Positions 555 to 9,899 of a DNA stretch of 19,024 bases are shown one piece after another (within the stretch, counting starts at the first letter, position 1; each line of letters begins with the position of its first letter). Position numbers and translations under genes: made by a program. The stretch is from an uncultured bacterium. Lineage in GTDB: Bacteria; Actinomycetota; Actinomycetes; Mycobacteriales; CAJCIY01. A model generated the notes under the pieces. That model worked only from the letters and a program-made list of their open reading frames with translations, was not told the DNA's origin and made no database searches. The stretch covers positions 1 to 19,024 of the forward strand of contig CAXTUZ010000020.1 in assembly GCA_964247525.1 (NCBI GenBank), in the 5' to 3' direction.

Positions 555-2018
555 ATGGCGGTGACCGAAGCGCCCGTGGAGATCCTCCCGCAGGCGGCGC
601 TGCTGATCGGTGATCAGCACATCACCGACAGCACCGGCGGTCCGTACGACCACATCTACGCCGCGAACGGCAAGGTCACCGCGACCCTCCCGCTCGCCGG
701 AGCATCCGAGGTGGATGCGGCTGTCGCGGCGGCACGGGCGGCACTTCCGTCGTGGAAGGGGATGCGGGCCGACGCCCGCCGCCGGTTGCTTCTCGCCGTG
801 GCCACCCTGCTCCGGGAGCACCACGAAGAGTTCGGGAAGATCGCCGTGATCGACAACGGCGCGCCGATCGCGGGAGCGGCACTGTCACCGAACACCGCCG
901 CGGACATGTGGGAGTACAACGCGGGGTGGGCCGACAAGATCGGTGGCGAGGTCGTCCCGACGTGGCGCGCCCCGGCGCTCGACTACACGCTGGAAGAACC
1001 GTTCGGCGTGGTCGCGATCATCTTCCCGTGGAACGGCCCGCTGGTGTCGCTCGGGCTTTCCCTCGGGCCGGCGCTCGCCGCCGGGAACACGATCGTGCTG
1101 AAGCCACCGGAGCTCGCGCCCTGGATCGCGCTCCGGATGGGCCAGCTGTTCCTCGAGGCGGGTTTCCCACCGGGCGTCGTCAACGTGATCCCCGGCGGCC
1201 CGGAGGGTGGTGCGGCCCTCGTTCGCCATCCCGGTGTCGACAAGATCCATTTCACCGGGAGCGGCGCGACCGCCGCCCACATCCTCGCCGGAGCGCAGGA
1301 GAACCTCACCCCGGTCGGTCTCGAGTTGGGTGGCAAGAGCGCCAACCTGATCTTCGCGGACGCCGACCTGCCGCGCGCCGTCGCGCAGGCGATTCGCGCG
1401 GTCACGATCATGTCCGGTCAGGGCTGCATCAACGGGACCCGCGTGCTCGTGGAGTCCGCGGTGTACGACGAGGTCGTTGCTCTCGCGACGCAGTCGCTGG
1501 CCGCGGTGAAGATGGGCGATCCGTTCGACCCCGGCACGGTGATGGGCCCTGTTGTCAACGAGGCGGCCGCGAACCGGATCGTCGGCATGATCGAGAAGGC
1601 CAAGGAGTCCAGTGCCCGGCTCGTCCTCGGCGGCACGCGCTCCGGCGGCGACCTGGCCGACGGGTACTTCATCGAGCCGACCGTGTTCGCCGACGTCGAC
1701 AACGGCGACTACATCGCGCAGAACGAGGTGTTCGGCCCGGTTCTCGCGCTCATGAAGTTCGATACCGAGGAGCAGGCGATCGCGCTCGCGAACGACACCC
1801 CGTTCGGCCTCGCCGCGTACGTCTCGTGCAACGACCTCGCCAAGACCCACCGCGTGGCCGCCGCGCTCGAGGCAGGCAACATCTGGGTCAACGGTTTCGC
1901 CGGGCTCATGTCCTCGGCTCCGTTCGGTGGCATCAAGCAGAGCGGAGTCGGCCGCCTCGGTGGCCGGGAGGGAATTCGCGAGTTCACCCGACCGAAGAAC
2001 ATCTGGATCGCGCTCTGA
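555..2018 (+). CDS. NAD(P)-dependent aldehyde dehydrogenase
   Basis: 487 aa. ALDH hallmarks: ELGGKSANLIF glutamate-active-site motif, GQGCINGTRVLV catalytic Cys, FTGSGATA. RBS GAAGGGGA precedes the ATG at 555. Confidence 0.9.
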   Translation: MAVTEAPVEILPQAALLIGDQHITDSTGGPYDHIYAANGKVTATLPLAGASEVDAAVAAARAALPSWKGMRADARRRLLLAVATLLREHHEEFGKIAVIDNGAPIAGAALSPNTAADMWEYNAGWADKIGGEVVPTWRAPALDYTLEEPFGVVAIIFPWNGPLVSLGLSLGPALAAGNTIVLKPPELAPWIALRMGQLFLEAGFPPGVVNVIPGGPEGGAALVRHPGVDKIHFTGSGATAAHILAGAQENLTPVGLELGGKSANLIFADADLPRAVAQAIRAVTIMSGQGCINGTRVLVESAVYDEVVALATQSLAAVKMGDPFDPGTVMGPVVNEAAANRIVGMIEKAKESSARLVLGGTRSGGDLADGYFIEPTVFADVDNGDYIAQNEVFGPVLALMKFDTEEQAIALANDTPFGLAAYVSCNDLAKTHRVAAALEAGNIWVNGFAGLMSSAPFGGIKQSGVGRLGGREGIREFTRPKNIWIAL

Positions 2019-2053: not shown

Positions 2054-4516
<2,463 letters not shown>

Positions 4517-4639: not shown

Positions 4640-4906
4640 ATGGTCGCCGCACACGTCGTCGAGTCGGCCTTGGACGTCCTGCGCCCCGGTCTGGCCGCCG
4701 ACGGTTTCGACCTGCGCGCCGGCACACAACGAGGCGCGGGCGTCGTCGAAGTGGTTCTCGAAGCAAAGCCCGATGCGTGCCTCGACTGCCTGGTTCCCGA
4801 CGATCTGTTGGTCCAAATCCTCGACGAGGCCATCCGTTCGCAGGACTCCTCCTTGGGACGCGTCGATCTGGTCAAGCAAGGATTCGACGCCGTGGAAGCG
4901 CACTAG
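4640..4906 (+). CDS. Small Nfu/NifU-C-terminal-like protein with CxxC motif
   Basis: 88 aa. The …ADGFDL…GVVEVVLEAKPDACLDCLVPDDLLVQILDEAI… pattern resembles the Nfu scaffold domain (…ADGGDVEL…VVKVRLQGACGSC…). Strong RBS GAGGGAGA 5 nt before the ATG at 4640. The upstream GTG start at 4565 is less likely. Confidence 0.55.
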   Translation: MVAAHVVESALDVLRPGLAADGFDLRAGTQRGAGVVEVVLEAKPDACLDCLVPDDLLVQILDEAIRSQDSSLGRVDLVKQGFDAVEAH

Positions 4907-4923: not shown

Positions 4924-5499
4924 ATGAACATGCACCGCACATCGGAGACCTACAAAGTACTCGCGCCGACCGGTTCGACCGAGCCGGCGAAGGTTCAGGC
5001 GGCGCCGCTGGGTGACCTGAACGGCAAGAGAATCATCGAGTTGTGGGATTACCTGTTCGGCGGCGACGCGATGCTCGAGATCATCAACGCCGAGCTCCGC
5101 TCCCGATTCCCGTCGGTCGACATCGTCGAGTACACCGAGGTCGGCAACATTCACGGCGTCGACGAGCTCGATGTGGTCGAGACGATCCCCGGCATCCTCA
5201 GTGACAAGGAGTGCGACGGGGCGATAGTCCTCGTAGCGGCTTGAGGCAGCTGTACGGCCGCCGTGTTGCGGTCCAGTGCAATTGTCGAACGGTCCGGGGT
5301 TCGCGCCGTACCTGTTGTCGCAACGAGCTTCATGGGTCAGGCCAAAGCGATCGCACGACTCGAAGGGTTCCCCGACATCGCCATGGCCGAGTACCCGGGC
5401 CACCCCGCGGCCGATGATGCCGAGGTGACCAGAGCCAAGCTGATCGACGGCGTGATTCCGGCGATCGTCGCAGCCTTGTCCGGACCTGACTATGAGTGA
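4924..5499 (+). CDS. Candidate selenoprotein, 'UGSC'-motif family; in-frame TGA at 5242-5244 recoded as selenocysteine
   Basis: RBS AAGGAAGG is followed by ATG at 4924. The frame is open to a single TGA at 5242-5244, immediately followed by GGC AGC TGT (G-S-C), and then stays open for 84 more codons to TGA at 5497-5499. Track ORFs 4777..5244 and 5263..5499 are in the same frame. Local peptide reads …DGAIVLVAA-U-GSCTAAVLRS…. The next gene starts inside its last 8 nt, indicating a real, translated 3' part. Confidence 0.65.
5242..5244 (+). other. In-frame UGA, putative selenocysteine codon (recoding site)
   Basis: Only stop codon in 576 nt of a continuous, coding-like frame. It sits in an A-A-U-G-S-C context; Cys-containing relatives would be expected to read CGSC. 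Confidence 0.6.
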
Positions 5500-6709
5500 G
5501 GTGGACGCGCACCTAGGCGATATCGCGTTCGAAGGAACATTTGCGCAGGTGCAAGAACACTTCCTTGCCAAAGGCTGGTCCGACGGGCTGCCGGTAGTTC
5601 CGCCGACGGCGGAGGCGGTCGGCGCTTTTCTTGCTTTTACCGACCTTGCAGCCGATGACACGTTGGGAATGATCCGCCCGTCCCGAGCCCAGGTCACGCT
5701 CACGTCGGTCGCGGTGAACGGGGTCATGGCCGGGTGCCGGCCGGAATACATGCCGATTCTTGTCGCGATCGCTCGTATCCTCGTCGACCCTGAGTTCTGG
5801 ACGAAGGACGCGGGCGCGACCCCGGGCATGGAGCCGATCGTCGTCGTCAGCGGGCCGCTGATCGAGGCCCTGGAGTTCAACTATCTGCAAGGCGTGCTGC
5901 GGATCGGGCGCCAGGCGAACGCATCGATCGGGCGCTTCACCCGGCTGTTCATGCGGAACGTGGCCGAGCTGCGGATACCGCCGGGGAACACCGACAAAGG
6001 TGCGATCGGCATGAACTTCCACGTGGCCCTGCCGGAGAACGAGGCCGCCGTACGAGCCTTGGGATGGCCCACCTTCGGCGACGAACACGGCTGCCCGCCG
6101 GGGGCAAATCTCGTCACGATTCTCGGGCTCCTGTGTTCCACCGCGCCGATCTACACGGCGGGTGAGGATCCCAAGGTTCATCTCGACAAGATCGCCCTGT
6201 TCCTCGGCGACCTGTCGGCGTCGTGGGTCGGAGTGTCGTTGTTGTTTCCCGGTCACTGGCATCCGCTGCTCGTGCTCAGTCCGCAGACGGCCCGCATTCT
6301 CGCAGCGGGTGGATACGACAAGCCGGCAATTCGGCGGTACCTCCACGAGAAGGTGTGGATCTCTCCCCGGAAGCTCGTGGATTACTGGGCGACGGGCGAG
6401 CGCGGGCCGGATGTGTTCGTACCGGAGCCCAATTTCTCCGGAGCGAACAGGGAGGCGTTGGCGGCGGCGTTTCCGGGTCTGCAGGAAGCACTCTCGGCGG
6501 ACGTACTCAGCGAAGAAGCCACGGTGCCGGTGTTCCCCTGGCCCGAGCAGATCGAGATCGTCCTCGCGGGGGAACCGCGCTATCACCAGTCCCGCGGATA
6601 TCTCACGAACCATCGGTTCGGGACGCCGGTGAGCCAGGTGGTCGAGCTGCCCCAACGATGGGACGAGCTCTTCGCGGACGCCCTGACCCGGTGGGCTGCG
6701 CTGGCCTGA
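5492..6709 (+). CDS. Hypothetical protein (405 aa), translationally coupled to the candidate selenoprotein
   Basis: ATG at 5492 overlaps the upstream stop by 8 nt (ATGAGTGA). Coding-like throughout (…GWSDGLPVVPPTAEAVGAF…, …GANLVTILGLLCSTAPIYTAGEDPK…). I cannot assign it to a family from sequence alone. The antisense ORF 5513..6655 is a shadow. Confidence 0.7.
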   Translation: MSEVDAHLGDIAFEGTFAQVQEHFLAKGWSDGLPVVPPTAEAVGAFLAFTDLAADDTLGMIRPSRAQVTLTSVAVNGVMAGCRPEYMPILVAIARILVDPEFWTKDAGATPGMEPIVVVSGPLIEALEFNYLQGVLRIGRQANASIGRFTRLFMRNVAELRIPPGNTDKGAIGMNFHVALPENEAAVRALGWPTFGDEHGCPPGANLVTILGLLCSTAPIYTAGEDPKVHLDKIALFLGDLSASWVGVSLLFPGHWHPLLVLSPQTARILAAGGYDKPAIRRYLHEKVWISPRKLVDYWATGERGPDVFVPEPNFSGANREALAAAFPGLQEALSADVLSEEATVPVFPWPEQIEIVLAGEPRYHQSRGYLTNHRFGTPVSQVVELPQRWDELFADALTRWAALA

Positions 6710-6842
6710 GGGTCAGAGCTTCGAGCGCCGTCACTCCGCGGGTAGCTCTGCGCGTCGCTGGTCCCGAATGCGCCGTGTCGCTGGCCGCCGCCACCGGCTG
6801 ACACGACGTTACGCTGCGATGACGCGCCTGAAGGAGACACCG

Positions 6843-8036
6843 ATGACCTGGAATCGCGACAGTACGGCGATCGTCGGCATCGGGTCGACAGACTTCTCGC
6901 GGAACTCCGGTCGAAGCGAGCTGAGGCTCGCGGTCGAGGCGAGCGGCGCGGCGCTCGAGGACGCCGGCATCGATGTTCGGAGCGTCGACGGCATCGTCCG
7001 CTGCGAGGCCGATCGGGTGTGGCACAACGACCTGGCTGAAGCGCTGGGAATCCCGAATCTCACCTATTGGGGCGCGTGCGGGCCGGGCGGCGTGTCGCCG
7101 GCGGGGCAGATCGCGCAGGCGGTCGGCGCGATCTGCAGTGGGCAGGCCTCGGTCGTCCTGTGCATCCGGGCCCTCAACGGCTACTCCGATCTCCGGATCG
7201 GGAGCATGACCAAGACAGCCGGCCCGATCACTGCCGGCGGTAACGGCAGCTACGACGAGTTCTACGCGCCGTACGGATTCGGCGGCGCTCCGGCCGCGGC
7301 GTACGCCATGGCGGCGCGGCGCCACATGATCGAGTACGGGACCACCGAGGAGCAGCTCGGCCGGATCGCCCTCGTTTGTCGGGAGAACGCGAACCGCAAT
7401 CCGCGGGCCCAGATGTACGAGCGGCGGATGACGATGGCGGACTACCTCGACAGCCCCAAGGTCGCCACTCCGCTCAAGCGCTTCGACTGCTGCCTTCAGA
7501 CGGACGGCGCCTGCGCGGTTGTGGTGACGAGCGCCGAGCGTGCTCGCGACTCGGCCCGGACGCCCGCGTACATTCGGGCAGTCGCCATGGGCAGCGGACC
7601 GCGCCCTGGTTTCGGCATGATCGACACGGTGCTGGCGCGCGAGAGCATCACCTCGTGGCCCTCGCGCTTCGCCGCCCGGACCCTCTACGAGCGGGCTGGT
7701 CTCGGTCCCGCCGATATCGATGTGGCGCAACTCTACGATTGCTTCACGATCACGGTCCTGATCCAGATCGAGGACTACGGATTCTGCGCGAAGGGCGACG
7801 GCGGTCCGTTCGTTGAGAGCGGCGCTATCGCCCGCGACGGCAGCATTCCCATCAACACCGCCGGCGGTCAGCTGTCCGAGGGCTACATCCCGGGCATGAA
7901 CGCGATCGTGGAAGGCGTCCGCCAGATCCGCGGGACATCCACCACCCAGATCGCCGGCGCACAGACGTGCCTCGTCACCTCCGGTACCCCACCGCCCACC
8001 GGCGCCATGATCCTGGTCGGGGAGGGAGCACGGTGA
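6843..8036 (+). CDS. Thiolase-like lipid-transfer protein (Ltp / SCP-x-type thiolase family)
   Basis: RBS AAGGAGA precedes the ATG at 6843. Thiolase-fold signatures: IVGIGSTDFSRNSGRSE, ALVCRENANRNPRAQ, C-terminal NTAGGQLSEGYIPGMNAIVEGVRQIRG. Confidence 0.85.
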   Translation: MTWNRDSTAIVGIGSTDFSRNSGRSELRLAVEASGAALEDAGIDVRSVDGIVRCEADRVWHNDLAEALGIPNLTYWGACGPGGVSPAGQIAQAVGAICSGQASVVLCIRALNGYSDLRIGSMTKTAGPITAGGNGSYDEFYAPYGFGGAPAAAYAMAARRHMIEYGTTEEQLGRIALVCRENANRNPRAQMYERRMTMADYLDSPKVATPLKRFDCCLQTDGACAVVVTSAERARDSARTPAYIRAVAMGSGPRPGFGMIDTVLARESITSWPSRFAARTLYERAGLGPADIDVAQLYDCFTITVLIQIEDYGFCAKGDGGPFVESGAIARDGSIPINTAGGQLSEGYIPGMNAIVEGVRQIRGTSTTQIAGAQTCLVTSGTPPPTGAMILVGEGAR

Positions 8037-8441: not shown

Positions 8442-9899
8442 GTGCTCGCCGCGCCGACTCACGTGTTGCCACGCGCCGCGTTGCTGATCGGGGATCAGCG
8501 GCTGACCGACACGAGTGCGGGCTGGTACGACCACATCTACGCCGCGAACGGCAAGGTCACCGCCTCGGTCCCGCTTGCCGGAGCCCGGGAGGTCGACCTC
8601 GCGGTGCGGGCCGCTCGCTCTGCGCTTCCTGCGTGGCGGGCGCTGCCGGCGGGAACCAGGCGGAGCCTGCTGCTTCGGCTGGCCACGCTGTTGCGCGAGC
8701 GCCGGAGCGACTTTGCGACGGTCTTCGTCATCGACAACGGCGCGCCGCTCGCGGCGGCGAAAGGGACCCCCGCGCGGACCGCTGACCTGTTCGAGTATCA
8801 CGCCGGGTGGGCCGACAAGATCAGCGGGGAAGTAGTCCCGGCGTGGCCGAGGCCTGCCTTGGACTACACAACGCGTGAGCCCTTCGGTGTCGTGGCGATC
8901 ATGTCGCCCTGGAACGGACCGCTGCTGTCGCTGGGAACGCGGGTGGCGCCGGCGCTCGCTGCCGGCAACACGGTGGTCCTCAAGCCTTCGGAGATCGCGC
9001 CGTGGAGCGCCCTCGCGTTGGGAGAGCTGTGTGGTGAGGCGGGCTTCCCACCCGGCGTCGTGAACGTGATTCCGAGTGGTCCCGAGGGCGGCGCGGCGCT
9101 CGTACGACATCGGGGCGTGGACAAGGTCCACTTCACCGGCAGCGGGGCGACGGCGAAGCACGTCCTGGCCGGCGCGCGGGAGAACCTCACTCCGGTGGGC
9201 CTGGAGCTGGGCGGGAAGAGTGCGAACGTGATCTTCGGGGACGCCGATCTCCCCCGGGCGGTTTCGCAGGCCATCAGCGCGGTCACGGTCCTGTCCGGCC
9301 AGGCCTGTATCAGTGGAAGCCGGGTGCTGGTCGAGGCATCCGTCTACGACGAGGTGGTCGCCATGACCGCGGATGCGCTTGCCGCCAAGAAGATGGGCGA
9401 TCCGCTCGATCCGAGCACGGTGATGGGCCCGGTGGTCAATCAGACCGCAGTGGATCGAATTCTCAGCATGATCGACCGTGCCAAAGGCTCGTCCGCGCGG
9501 CTCGTCCTCGGCGGGGAACGACTCGGCGGCGACCTTTCCGACGGCTACTTCGTCGCGCCGACGATCTTTGCTGACGTCGACAACCACGACGACCTTGCCC
9601 GGCACGAGGTGTTCGGCCCGGTGCTCTCGATGCTCCGGTTCGAGACCGAGGCCGAGGCGGTGGCAATCGCGAACGACACTTCGTACGGGCTCGCCGGTTA
9701 TCTCTGGACCAACGATCTCCAGCGTGCCCATCGGGTCGCCGCGGCGCTGGAGACCGGCATCATCTGGGTCAACGGATTCGACGGAATTCCGGCGGGCGCG
9801 CCGTTCGGGGGCGTCAAGCAGAGCGGGCACGGACGGCTCGGCGGCATCGACGCGATCCGCGAGTTCAGTTACGTCAAGAACGTCTGGATCGGTCTCTGA
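8442..9899 (+). CDS. NAD(P)-dependent aldehyde dehydrogenase (paralog of 555..2018)
   Basis: Collinear and roughly 65-70% identical to the first ALDH by eye (LLIGDQ…YDHIYAANGKVTA…PLAGA; ELGGKSANVIF; GQACISGSRVLV). Start is assigned to the GTG at 8442 after RBS GGAAGGGA; the GTG/TTG codons at 8463-8466 are alternatives. Confidence 0.85.
   Translation: MLAAPTHVLPRAALLIGDQRLTDTSAGWYDHIYAANGKVTASVPLAGAREVDLAVRAARSALPAWRALPAGTRRSLLLRLATLLRERRSDFATVFVIDNGAPLAAAKGTPARTADLFEYHAGWADKISGEVVPAWPRPALDYTTREPFGVVAIMSPWNGPLLSLGTRVAPALAAGNTVVLKPSEIAPWSALALGELCGEAGFPPGVVNVIPSGPEGGAALVRHRGVDKVHFTGSGATAKHVLAGARENLTPVGLELGGKSANVIFGDADLPRAVSQAISAVTVLSGQACISGSRVLVEASVYDEVVAMTADALAAKKMGDPLDPSTVMGPVVNQTAVDRILSMIDRAKGSSARLVLGGERLGGDLSDGYFVAPTIFADVDNHDDLARHEVFGPVLSMLRFETEAEAVAIANDTSYGLAGYLWTNDLQRAHRVAAALETGIIWVNGFDGIPAGAPFGGVKQSGHGRLGGIDAIREFSYVKNVWIGL

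What the first reader, a model, noticed from the sequence alone, without database searches (positions are those of the whole stretch)
5245..5320. Candidate SECIS-like structured region immediately downstream of the UGA, with locally depressed third-position GC
In the ~25 codons following the UGA, wobble positions switch from the nearly uniform G/C used elsewhere to many A/T (tgt, acg, agt, gca, att, gtc, gaa, gtt, gta, cct, gtt, gtc, gca). This is what is expected when mRNA structure is under selection on top of coding. Possible pairings: GTACGGC (5252-5258) with GCCGTAC (5305-5311), enclosing local hairpins TTGC…GCAA (5266-5280) and CGAAC…GTTCG (5286-5304) with a G-rich loop. I cannot fold RNA reliably by eye, so this is only a candidate for the bacterial SECIS that SelB requires.
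Basis: partly seen in the sequence, partly recalled or inferred. Interest (0 to 1): 0.55.

Follow-up and report, generated by a model that had tools for sequence, protein, structure and literature searches.

The report
Selenocysteine insertion hairpin after UGA

Summary
The gene at 4924-5499 (+) belongs to the known UGSC selenoprotein family (Pfam PF24696, E=1e-23). It has an in-frame TGA at 5242-5244.

The conserved element is a 6-bp hairpin: GGCCGC (5256-5261), loop CGUGUU (5262-5267), GCGGUC (5268-5273). It starts 11 nt after the UGA. In this clade it extends to an imperfect 42-nt hairpin (5245-5286).

- **Conservation:** 65 distinct Sec-type (TGA) relatives from several phyla keep this hairpin almost unchanged, silent codon positions included. 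Three pairs show compensatory changes. In the window's clade C-G became G·U through Pro->Ala plus Ala->Ser.
- **Controls:** seven Cys-type relatives encode the same peptide with other codons. A covariance model built without the window's clade hits the window only at 5242-5277 (54 bits, E=2e-14). Cys forms score 8-18 bits.
the region and function are right, the drawing is wrong. The 7-bp long-range helix and two inner hairpins are not conserved, and two of the three clash with the real stem. The low-GC3 stretch is real but lies at codons +11 to +25, 3' of the core.
- **Limits:** stability alone is no evidence, since 14% of all UGA triplets here meet the generic SECIS criteria. SelB binding and the Sec machinery were not testable.

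Verdict: a new member of a known kind, of low to moderate interest.

The parts
4924..5499 (+). UGSC-family selenoprotein gene, 191 codons when read through the UGA. The motif is U107-G-S-C110.
   Evidence: The translation is open except for one TGA. Pfam PF24696 UGSC matches residues 12-186 with E=9.8e-24. NCBIfam NF041046 scores 54.9 bits, below its cutoff of 125. The TGA aligns with Cys in full-length Cys forms. The public gene call stops at the UGA, giving P0001 of 106 aa.
5242..5244 (+). In-frame UGA, read as the selenocysteine codon.
   Evidence: TGA sits at the homologous position in 81 of 88 related loci. TGA is otherwise the ordinary stop for 10 of 15 genes in the window, including this gene's own end at 5497-5499.
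5245..5286 (+). Extended, imperfect SECIS hairpin of 42 nt, dG -18.6 kcal/mol. The lower stems are 5245-5249 with 5282-5286 and 5251-5255 with 5276-5280.
   Evidence: RNAfold. The same architecture appears in the close clade: window, L001, L004, and L003 as far as its contig reaches (it ends before the outer lower stem). The outer lower stem is paired 5 of 5 in window, L001 and L004, and 74.6% across the family. The register of the middle stem varies (51.7%).
5256..5261 (+). 5' arm of the conserved upper stem (GGCCGC).
   Evidence: RNAalifold consensus on 70 sequences. Pair counts are 98.6% paired, with 0 of 500 shuffles reaching the observed covariation.
5262..5267 (+). Apical loop CGUGUU, with G-U at loop positions 2-3. 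These are positions 22-23 counted from the U of UGA.
   Evidence: Of 64 distinct Sec forms, loop base 1 (third base of GCC) is kept in 62 and the GUG codon (loop bases 2-4) in 62. Both include silent codon positions. The loop meets the published bacterial SECIS loop rule (PMC13188914).
5268..5273 (+). 3' arm of the conserved upper stem (GCGGUC). U5272 forms the clade-specific G·U pair with G5257.
   Evidence: The C-G to G·U change occurs in window, L001, L004 and independently in L067.
5286..5303 (+). Local hairpin CGAAC / GTTCG (dG -4.8). It is clade-specific at best and is not part of the conserved element.
   Evidence: It is 59% paired across the family and 4 of 5 in L001 and L004. RNAalifold on 78 sequences finds no conserved helix 3' of the core.
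5492..6709 (+). Partner gene of 405 aa with no family match. Its start overlaps the UGSC stop (ATGAGTGA).
   Evidence: A homologue lies directly downstream of, or is fused to, the UGSC gene in 85 of 87 loci. Fusion proteins of 567-588 aa exist. There is no Pfam or NCBIfam hit.

Best explanation
The element is the bacterial SECIS of a UGSC-family selenoprotein mRNA. Its core is an 18-nt stem-loop at 5256-5273: a 6-bp stem with loop CGUGUU. It begins 11 nt after the UGA and sits on a weaker lower stem, giving the whole hairpin 5245-5286.

Inferred mechanism: when the ribosome reaches UGA 5242-5244, the apical stem-loop is bound by SelB-GTP-Sec-tRNA(Sec). This delivers selenocysteine to the A site in competition with release factor 2. 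Translation then continues through the hairpin, which itself encodes G108-V121, to the real stop at 5497-5499. The product is a 191-aa protein with a U-G-S-C redox motif.

Shown here: the hairpin, its position, its conservation and covariation, and its absence from most Cys-type relatives.

Inferred from established knowledge of bacterial Sec decoding: SelB binding and Sec insertion.
For: 1. Gene identity. The full-length Pfam UGSC match spans the UGA. U aligns with Cys in Cys forms. TGA is kept in 81 of 88 related loci from Actinomycetota, Beta-, Alpha- and Gammaproteobacteria, Chloroflexi and others.
2. Single conserved helix. RNAalifold on 70 Sec forms returns only this helix, and nothing further out to +110 nt.
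3. Pair counts. 98.6% of cells are paired against at most 50.5% for slid controls, with 9 double-change cells and 0 of 500 shuffles reaching this. Without the window's clade the figures are 96.9%, with three pairs showing double changes: G-C/A-U/G·U/C-G, C-G to G·U, and G-C to U-A.
4. Silent sites are frozen only inside the hairpin. In Sec forms the codons are CCC 55/57, GCC 63/64, GTG 63/65 and CGG 61/65. Seven Cys forms coding the same residues match these codons only 6 times in 25 (Fisher p=1e-17, not corrected for phylogeny). The flanking Gly and Ala codons use all four synonyms.
5. Leave-out test. Covariance model R1, built without the window's clade, hits the window once, at 5242-5277 (54.2 bits, E=1.8e-14). 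The next-best hit is 7.2 bits. Cys forms score 7.7-17.5 bits.
6. Published bacterial SECIS criteria (PMC13188914) are all met: 6-nt loop, 6-bp stem, G then U at loop positions 2-3, 17 nt from UGA to loop, core dG -8.5.
7. Placement. The core occupies positions 15-32 from the U of UGA. The E. coli minimal element occupies 15-31 (PMC8659212).
8. UGA is otherwise a stop codon in this window.
Against: - The window holds no selA, selB, selD or tRNA-Sec, so the host's ability to insert Sec is unverified.
- Stability alone is not above chance in this 68% G+C sequence.
- Most stem pairs are nearly invariant. Covariation rests on about five independent events in three pairs, and the shuffle control does not correct for phylogeny.
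- There is no bulged U in the 5' arm like U17 of E. coli fdhF.
- No Rfam family matches.
- One Cys-type paralogue (L084, minus strand) still keeps a SECIS-like core (38.6 bits), so the Cys/Sec contrast is not absolute.
Confidence: 0.9

Rival explanations
1. The functional SECIS is the first reader's three-helix structure: a long-range 7-bp helix (5252-5258 with 5305-5311) enclosing the hairpins TTGC/GCAA and CGAAC/GTTCG.
For: All three pairings are perfectly complementary in the window itself.
Against: Across 70 relatives the long-range helix is 48% paired, and 4 of 7 in the closest relatives L001 and L004. TTGC/GCAA is 63% paired and CGAAC/GTTCG 59%. The first two clash with the invariant core pairs. 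The structure scores -17.1 kcal/mol against -21.3 for the minimum-free-energy fold on the same segment. RNAalifold finds none of these helices.
Confidence: 0.02
2. The functional hairpin is the overlapping alternative closer to the UGA: (U/C)ACG(G) 5252-5256 pairing with CCGUG 5262-5266.
For: It is 90% compatible across the family, and RNAfold picks it in a few sequences, such as L014, L015 and L039.
Against: It has no double-sided changes, and all 500 shuffles reach the observed score. When alignment column 21 changes to A or C, this pair breaks, while the same column covaries with column 38 in the core helix. The loop would start fewer than 16 nt after the UGA, and in most relatives it has no G in its first two positions, so it fails the published criteria.
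Confidence: 0.03
3. There is no RNA function. The nucleotide conservation reflects protein constraint, codon bias or recent horizontal transfer, and the TGA is a true stop or a pseudogene lesion.
For: The peptide C-T-P/A-A-V-L-R is conserved in Cys forms too, so part of the nucleotide identity is due to coding. The public annotation ends the gene at the TGA.
Against: Cys forms encode the same residues with other codons. Flanking synonymous sites are saturated while hairpin sites are frozen. Compensatory changes are present. The reading frame, the Pfam match and the partner-gene overlap all continue past the TGA. TGA is kept in 81 loci.
Confidence: 0.02
4. The hairpin promotes read-through of UGA by something other than Sec, for example near-cognate tRNA or Cys-tRNA(Sec).
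For: Sequence alone cannot tell which residue is inserted.
Against: The UGA aligns with the first Cys of a CxxC-type motif. The family is a recognised selenoprotein family, with 255 Sec against 21 Cys forms in the GOS survey (PMC2398784). The hairpin's geometry and G-U loop match SelB-type elements.
Confidence: 0.03

Closest known systems
Bacterial SECIS consensus model (bSECISearch criteria, as summarised in PMC13188914)
   Same: It is a stem-loop inside the coding region, directly 3' of the Sec UGA. The loop is 6 nt (allowed 3-9) and the upper stem 6 bp (allowed 4-16). G then U occupy loop positions 2-3. There are 17 nt between UGA and loop (allowed 16-37). Core dG is -8.5 (required <= -7.5).
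   Different: It is far more sequence-invariant across phyla than the model requires, because it overlaps a conserved peptide (C-T-P/A-A-V-L-R). The generic criteria are weak here: 14% of all UGA triplets in this window satisfy them by chance.
Escherichia coli fdhF SECIS (40-nt hairpin; minimal 17-nt upper stem-loop at positions 15-31; U17, G23 and U24 essential; PMC8659212)
   Same: Overall size is similar (42 nt against 40). The upper stem-loop starts at position 15, 11 nt after the UGA. There is a G-U dinucleotide in the apical loop, at positions 22-23 against 23-24. The lower stem is imperfect.
   Different: There is no bulged U in the 5' arm. The loop is 6 nt, CGUGUU. There is no primary-sequence similarity. 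In the window an alternative register gives a bulged U5272 on the 3' arm instead.
UGSC family (seleno)protein, Pfam PF24696 / NCBIfam NF041046 (the 'UGSC-containing protein' of Zhang and Gladyshev, PMC1976440 and PMC2398784)
   Same: It has the U-G-S-C motif and a full-length Pfam match. Sec forms predominate over Cys forms. The downstream 'Unknown_1' partner domain is present as a separate gene.
   Different: It belongs to a divergent, rare clade (U-G-S-C-T-A-A-V-L-R-S-S) with at most 64% identity to any relative found. It scores below the NCBIfam equivalog cutoff (54.9 against 125 bits). One SECIS pair is G·U instead of C-G.
Rfam SECIS families
   Same: Same biological role.
   Different: No match at gathering threshold over the whole window, or at E<=10 over 5150-5400. 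This hairpin is not represented in Rfam 15.

Membership tests
Bacterial SECIS (consensus model, PMC13188914) | Stem-loop within the ORF, immediately 3' of an in-frame UGA that aligns with Cys in homologues | tested here: met
   UGA at 5242-5244 and hairpin at 5245-5286. U aligns with C in Cys forms.
Bacterial SECIS (consensus model, PMC13188914) | Apical loop of 3-9 nt on an upper stem of 4-16 bp | tested here: met
   Loop 5262-5267 is 6 nt and the stem is 6 bp.
Bacterial SECIS (consensus model, PMC13188914) | G in one of the first two loop positions, usually followed by G or U | tested here: met
   The loop is C-G-U-G-U-U. The GUG codon that supplies the G and U is kept in 62 of 64 distinct Sec forms.
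Bacterial SECIS (consensus model, PMC13188914) | 16-37 nt between the UGA and the apical loop | tested here: met
   17 nt, 5245-5261.
Bacterial SECIS (consensus model, PMC13188914) | Free energy <= -7.5 kcal/mol | tested here: met
   The core is -8.5 and the whole hairpin -18.6. This is not better than shuffled sequence.
Bacterial SECIS (consensus model, PMC13188914) | Structure conserved with compensatory changes in orthologous UGA-containing genes | tested here: met
   97-99% paired, three pairs with double changes, and 0 of 500 shuffles.
Bacterial SECIS (consensus model, PMC13188914) | Binds SelB and directs Sec insertion; the genome encodes selA, selB, selC and selD | not testable with these tools
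   The window is a whole 19-kb contig with no sel genes and no tRNA.
E. coli fdhF-type SECIS (PMC8659212) | Minimal upper stem-loop beginning 11 nt after the UGA | tested here: met
   The core occupies positions 15-32 counted from the U of UGA.
E. coli fdhF-type SECIS (PMC8659212) | Bulged U in the 5' arm (U17) | tested here: not met
   The 5' arm GGCCGC pairs without a bulge in the window and in the family consensus.
UGSC family (seleno)protein | Match to Pfam PF24696 above its gathering score | tested here: met
   84.8 bits against a cutoff of 25, covering residues 12-186 of 191.
UGSC family (seleno)protein | Match to the NCBIfam NF041046 equivalog above its cutoff | tested here: not met
   54.9 bits against a cutoff of 125. 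The protein is a divergent member.
UGSC family (seleno)protein | U/C-G-S-C motif at the conserved position | tested here: met
   Residues 107-110 are U-G-S-C, as in the relatives.
UGSC-gene SECIS motif (model R1, built here without the window's clade) | Significant and unique covariance-model hit at the UGA | tested here: met
   54.2 bits, E=1.8e-14 at 5242-5277. The next hit in the window scores 7.2 bits.
Rfam SECIS families | Covariance-model match | tested here: not met
   No hit at gathering threshold or at E<=10.

The most novel reading that the evidence does not exclude
The hairpin after the UGA of UGSC genes may be a distinct, unusually rigid class of bacterial SECIS: G-CCCGC-[CGUGNU]-GCGGG-C at a fixed 11-nt offset. 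It is kept almost base for base across Actinomycetota, Proteobacteria, Chloroflexi and Firmicutes, and it is absent from Rfam. It is written into the conserved peptide C-T-P-A-V-L-R-A, so that amino-acid replacements (Pro->Ala with Ala->Ser in the window's clade) have to come in RNA-compensating pairs. In high-GC hosts the A/T-rich silent sites just 3' of it may be selected to keep it folded.
Probability: 0.4. Interest if true: 0.4.

Novelty: new member of a known kind. Interest (0 to 1): 0.25.

Why it matters
- **Annotation.** The public gene call stops at the UGA (106 aa). The real product is most likely a 191-aa selenoprotein, translationally coupled to a 405-aa partner of unknown function. 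The same correction probably applies to many relatives: most of the 150 best cluster representatives listed (of 242 with E<=0.001) are only about 100-110 aa long and end where the alignment ends.
- **A usable tool.** The covariance model built here separates Sec forms (47-54 bits) from Cys forms (8-18 bits). It could be used to annotate UGSC selenoproteins, which Rfam does not cover.
- **An example of dual coding.** The same 18 nt are constrained both as peptide and as a SelB-type hairpin. Paired amino-acid changes preserve an RNA base pair.

None of this is conceptually new for selenoprotein biology.

Tried and rejected
- **Rfam.** Scans at gathering threshold over the whole window, and at E<=10 over 5150-5400, gave no match.
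- **tRNA scan.** No tRNA in the window, so no tRNA-Sec.
- **Single-sequence thermodynamics.** z-scores were +0.13 and -1.31, which is uninformative at 68% G+C.
- **Generic bSECIS criteria.** Applied to every UGA triplet in the window, they gave 14% false positives, so they were rejected as evidence on their own.
- **The search for related loci.** A 4-sequence alignment worked.
- **Metagenome scan for close relatives.** It returned only 8 loci, none above 44% identity, so the window's clade stays at four lineages: window, L001/L002, L003 and L004/L034.
- **Source record.** The look-up of P0001's contig found nothing on record. The cluster look-up gave no names or organism. The source taxon is therefore not established; it is probably Actinomycetota, judging from the nearest relative L004.
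- **Protein structure.** A PDB sequence search found nothing meaningful.
- **Alternative hairpin nearer the UGA.** It is compatible with the sequences but shows no covariation.
- **A further conserved helix 3' of the core.** None was found out to +110 nt.

Full report
**Observation**

The window has an ORF at 4924-5499 (+) interrupted by a single in-frame TGA at 5242-5244. Read through, it gives a 191-aa protein with the motif U107-G-S-C110.

- GC3 of the 25 codons after the TGA is 0.64. Upstream it is 0.86, and in neighbouring genes 0.78-0.89. Only 1.5% of 25-codon windows in the six neighbouring genes are as low.
- Resolved more finely, codons +1 to +10 have GC3 0.90. The dip (0.47) sits at codons +11 to +25, 5275-5319.
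Three of the 13 codons listed as A/T-ending actually end in G/C.
- Folding energy gives no evidence. The z-score is +0.13 for 5242-5300 and -1.31 for 5230-5330. 56 of 400 UGA triplets in the window (14%) are followed by a hairpin that meets the published generic bacterial SECIS criteria.

**What the gene is**

- Pfam PF24696 (UGSC family) matches residues 12-186, across the TGA, at E=9.8e-24.
- The NCBIfam equivalog NF041046, 'UGSC family (seleno)protein', matches at 54.9 bits, below its cutoff of 125.
- This family is a recognised selenoprotein family of unknown function. It was reported as the 'UGSC-containing protein', with 255 Sec and 21 Cys forms in the GOS survey (PMC2398784; PMC1976440; PMC13188914).
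- An exhaustive search with the N-terminal 106 aa found 242 cluster representatives. Most of the 150 listed are about 100-110 aa long and end where the alignment ends, so they are gene calls truncated at the UGA. A few are 567-588 aa Cys-form fusions with a second domain.
- The public gene call for this very contig is also truncated at 106 aa.
- TGA is the normal stop for 10 of 15 genes in the window, including this gene's own end, so any recoding must be site-specific.

**Related loci**

One scan of species-representative genomes returned 80 loci. Further contigs came from exact-protein look-ups and a metagenome scan.

- Of 88 loci with the motif, 81 have TGA at the U position and 7 have a Cys codon.
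- The hosts include Acidimicrobiia and other Actinomycetota, Beta-, Alpha- and Gammaproteobacteria, Chloroflexi, Lachnospiraceae and others.
- The nearest relatives are rare: L001/L002 at about 60% identity, L003 at 64%, and L004/L034 at 50-56%. L004/L034 come from an uncultured Actinomycetota MAG. All share U-G-S-C-T-A-A-V-L-R-S-S with the window.

**The conserved element**

The codon-anchored alignment of 70 distinct Sec forms has no gaps. RNAalifold returns one helix only: alignment columns 21-26 with 33-38, loop 27-32.

In the window this is GGCCGC (5256-5261), CGUGUU (5262-5267) and GCGGUC (5268-5273). An alignment extended to +110 nt adds no further helix.

Pair counts:
- 98.6% of cells are paired, against at most 50.5% when the 3' partners are slid by 1-3 columns. 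There are 9 double-change cells, and 0 of 500 shuffles reach the observed covariation.
- In a second alignment of 60 sequences that omits the window's clade, 96.9% are paired and three pairs carry double changes:
  - G-C / A-U / G·U / C-G at the closing pair;
  - C-G to G·U at the next pair;
  - G-C to U-A at the fifth pair (L006: GCC->UCC together with CGG->AGG).
- In the window's clade the C-G to G·U change comes from two amino-acid replacements: Pro CCC -> Ala GCC, and Ala GCN -> Ser UCN.
- A small sub-clade (L039, L047, L059, L081) keeps the same loop but has a bulged U on the 3' arm.

**Silent sites**

Within the hairpin, Sec forms use CCC 55/57, GCC 63/64, GTG 63/65 and CGG 61/65. This holds regardless of host G+C: the low-G+C loci L021, L022 and L026 keep these codons while using TTA, AAA and ATT nearby.

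The Gly codon at +1 and the Ala codon at +10, just outside the helix, use all four synonyms. The wobble base of the Thr codon is the 5' base of the closing pair, and it covaries with its partner.

Seven Cys forms coding the same residues match the 'Sec' codons only 6 times in 25. Sec forms match 242 times in 251 (Fisher p=1e-17, not corrected for phylogeny). None of the Cys forms folds into the helix.

**Leave-out test**

Covariance model R1 was built from 60 Sec forms, excluding the window's clade.

| Target | Score |
|---|---|
| Window, 5242-5277 (the only significant hit) | 54.2 bits, E=1.8e-14 |
| Next-best hit in the window | 7.2 bits |
| The window's clade-mates | 50-54 bits |
| Cys forms at the homologous site | 7.7-17.5 bits |
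| Cys-type paralogue on the minus strand of L084 | 38.6 bits |

 The L084 paralogue looks like a recent Sec-to-Cys conversion with a fossil hairpin.

**Anatomy in the window**

The core has dG -8.5 kcal/mol. It sits on two weaker stems: UGUAC 5251-5255 with GUGCA 5276-5280, and GGCAG 5245-5249 with UUGUC 5282-5286. Together they form a 42-nt hairpin of -18.6 kcal/mol that starts at the first base after the UGA.

The same architecture appears in L001, L004 and, as far as its contig reaches, L003. Across the whole family the register of the lower stems varies: the outer stem is 74.6% paired and the middle stem 51.7%.

Three A/U wobble bases of codons +11 to +13 (U5277, A5280, U5283) pair with fixed first-codon bases of the 5' arm.

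In a 161-nt context the predicted probability of the core helix is 0.75. Synonymous recoding according to local codon usage gives:
- codons +11 to +25: mean 0.17, with 8% of variants at or above native;
- codons +15 to +25 alone: mean 0.51, with 29% at or above native.

A milder dip at +11 to +25 is seen across relatives: 0.68 against about 0.79 in Sec forms, and 0.71 against about 0.75 in seven Cys forms.

- The 7-bp long-range helix is 48% paired across the family, and 4 of 7 in L001 and L004. It uses three bases of the real stem.
- TTGC/GCAA uses 5268-5269, which pair in the core helix in all 70 sequences.
- CGAAC/GTTCG is 59% paired across the family.
- The whole drawing scores -17.1 kcal/mol, against -21.3 for the minimum-free-energy fold of the same segment.

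An overlapping alternative hairpin nearer the UGA (5252-5256 with 5262-5266) is 90% compatible but shows no covariation. It breaks exactly where the core helix covaries.

**Mechanism**

By geometry the element is a standard bacterial SECIS. It meets every criterion of the published consensus (PMC13188914):
- 6-nt loop;
- 6-bp stem;
- G then U at loop positions 2-3;
- 17 nt from UGA to loop;
- dG <= -7.5.

Its upper stem-loop occupies positions 15-32 counted from the U of UGA. The E. coli fdhF minimal element occupies 15-31, with G23/U24 in the loop (PMC8659212). It lacks the 5' bulged U17 of fdhF.

The inference is that SelB-GTP-Sec-tRNA(Sec) binds the apical stem-loop and decodes the UGA as Sec. 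This follows from established knowledge of bacterial Sec decoding and is not shown here. The 19-kb contig has no sel genes or tRNA, and Rfam has no matching family.

**Context**

- The 405-aa ORF at 5492-6709 overlaps the UGSC stop (ATGAGTGA). It has a homologue directly downstream of, or fused to, the UGSC gene in 85 of 87 loci. It corresponds to the 'Unknown_1' fusion partner noted in the GOS paper and has no Pfam or NCBIfam match.
- Around the pair lie two aldehyde dehydrogenase paralogues, a tandem-fused family III CoA-transferase and a thiolase-like protein.
- Residues 96-176 show weak similarity to the Sec region of GrdB/PrdB-type selenoprotein B (E=0.002-0.07). This is a lead only.

**Verdict**

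The finding is real and the functional guess is right, but the structure is a different and simpler hairpin than the one proposed. The element is an ordinary bacterial SECIS in a known selenoprotein family, in a divergent and currently mis-annotated member.

The cross-phylum rigidity of this hairpin, its absence from Rfam and the RNA-compensating amino-acid changes are mildly interesting. Nothing here changes how Sec decoding is understood.

Noticed in passing
window 5492-6709 (+): A 405-aa ORF with no Pfam or NCBIfam match starts by overlapping the UGSC stop (ATGAGTGA). A homologue lies directly downstream of, or is fused to, the UGSC gene in 85 of 87 loci, so the two form an obligate module of unknown function. 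It corresponds to the 'Unknown_1' domain of the GOS paper.
   Followed up: partly
window 4640-4906 (+): An 88-aa ORF with a C-L-D-C motif and no family match lies just upstream of the UGSC gene. It is conserved (57-61% identity) at the same upstream position only in the nearest relative's two contigs, L004 and L034. It may be a clade-specific redox partner.
   Followed up: partly
window 4924-5241 (+); P0001: The public gene call for this contig ends at the UGA (106 aa). Most of the 150 best family representatives listed in the 1.8-billion-protein library are likewise only about 100-110 aa long, which points to systematic truncation of this selenoprotein family in annotations.
   Followed up: yes
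L084 456-491 (-); L067 1189 and 5177 (+): L084 carries two Cys-form genes. The one on the minus strand (TGC) still has a near-intact SECIS-like core (38.6 bits), which suggests a recent Sec-to-Cys switch. L067 (a Synergistaceae MAG) carries one Cys and one Sec paralogue about 4 kb apart.
   Followed up: partly
L039 4304-4339, L047 4298-4333, L059, L081: A sub-clade of Sec-form UGSC-partner fusion proteins has a variant core (GCC GCC GUG ACG CGU GCC) that folds with a bulged U on the 3' arm. Two members are cultured isolates, Streptomyces hyderabadensis JCM 17657 and Amaricoccus solimangrovi HB172011, so experiments are feasible.
   Followed up: partly
window 5209-5451 (residues 96-176 of the UGSC protein): There are weak NCBIfam matches to the Sec-containing region of glycine, sarcosine, betaine and proline reductase selenoprotein B (GrdB E=0.0024, PrdB E=0.05). 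PrdB is also listed with a UxxC motif. This may be distant homology and was not verified.
   Followed up: no
window 555-2018, 2054-4516, 6816-8036, 8448-9899 (+): The UGSC pair is embedded among two aldehyde dehydrogenase paralogues (69.5% identical), an 820-aa tandem fusion of two family III CoA-transferase domains and a thiolase-like 'lipid-transfer' protein. Family III CoA-transferase genes also lie upstream of UGSC in about 10 other loci and in L086. This hints at a role in acyl-CoA or organic-acid metabolism.
   Followed up: partly
window 5275-5319 (+): GC3 falls to 0.47 in codons +11 to +25, just 3' of the conserved core. Only the first three or four of these codons are explained by the lower stem. 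The rest of the dip has no conserved structure and remains unexplained. A milder dip is seen in relatives.
   Followed up: partly
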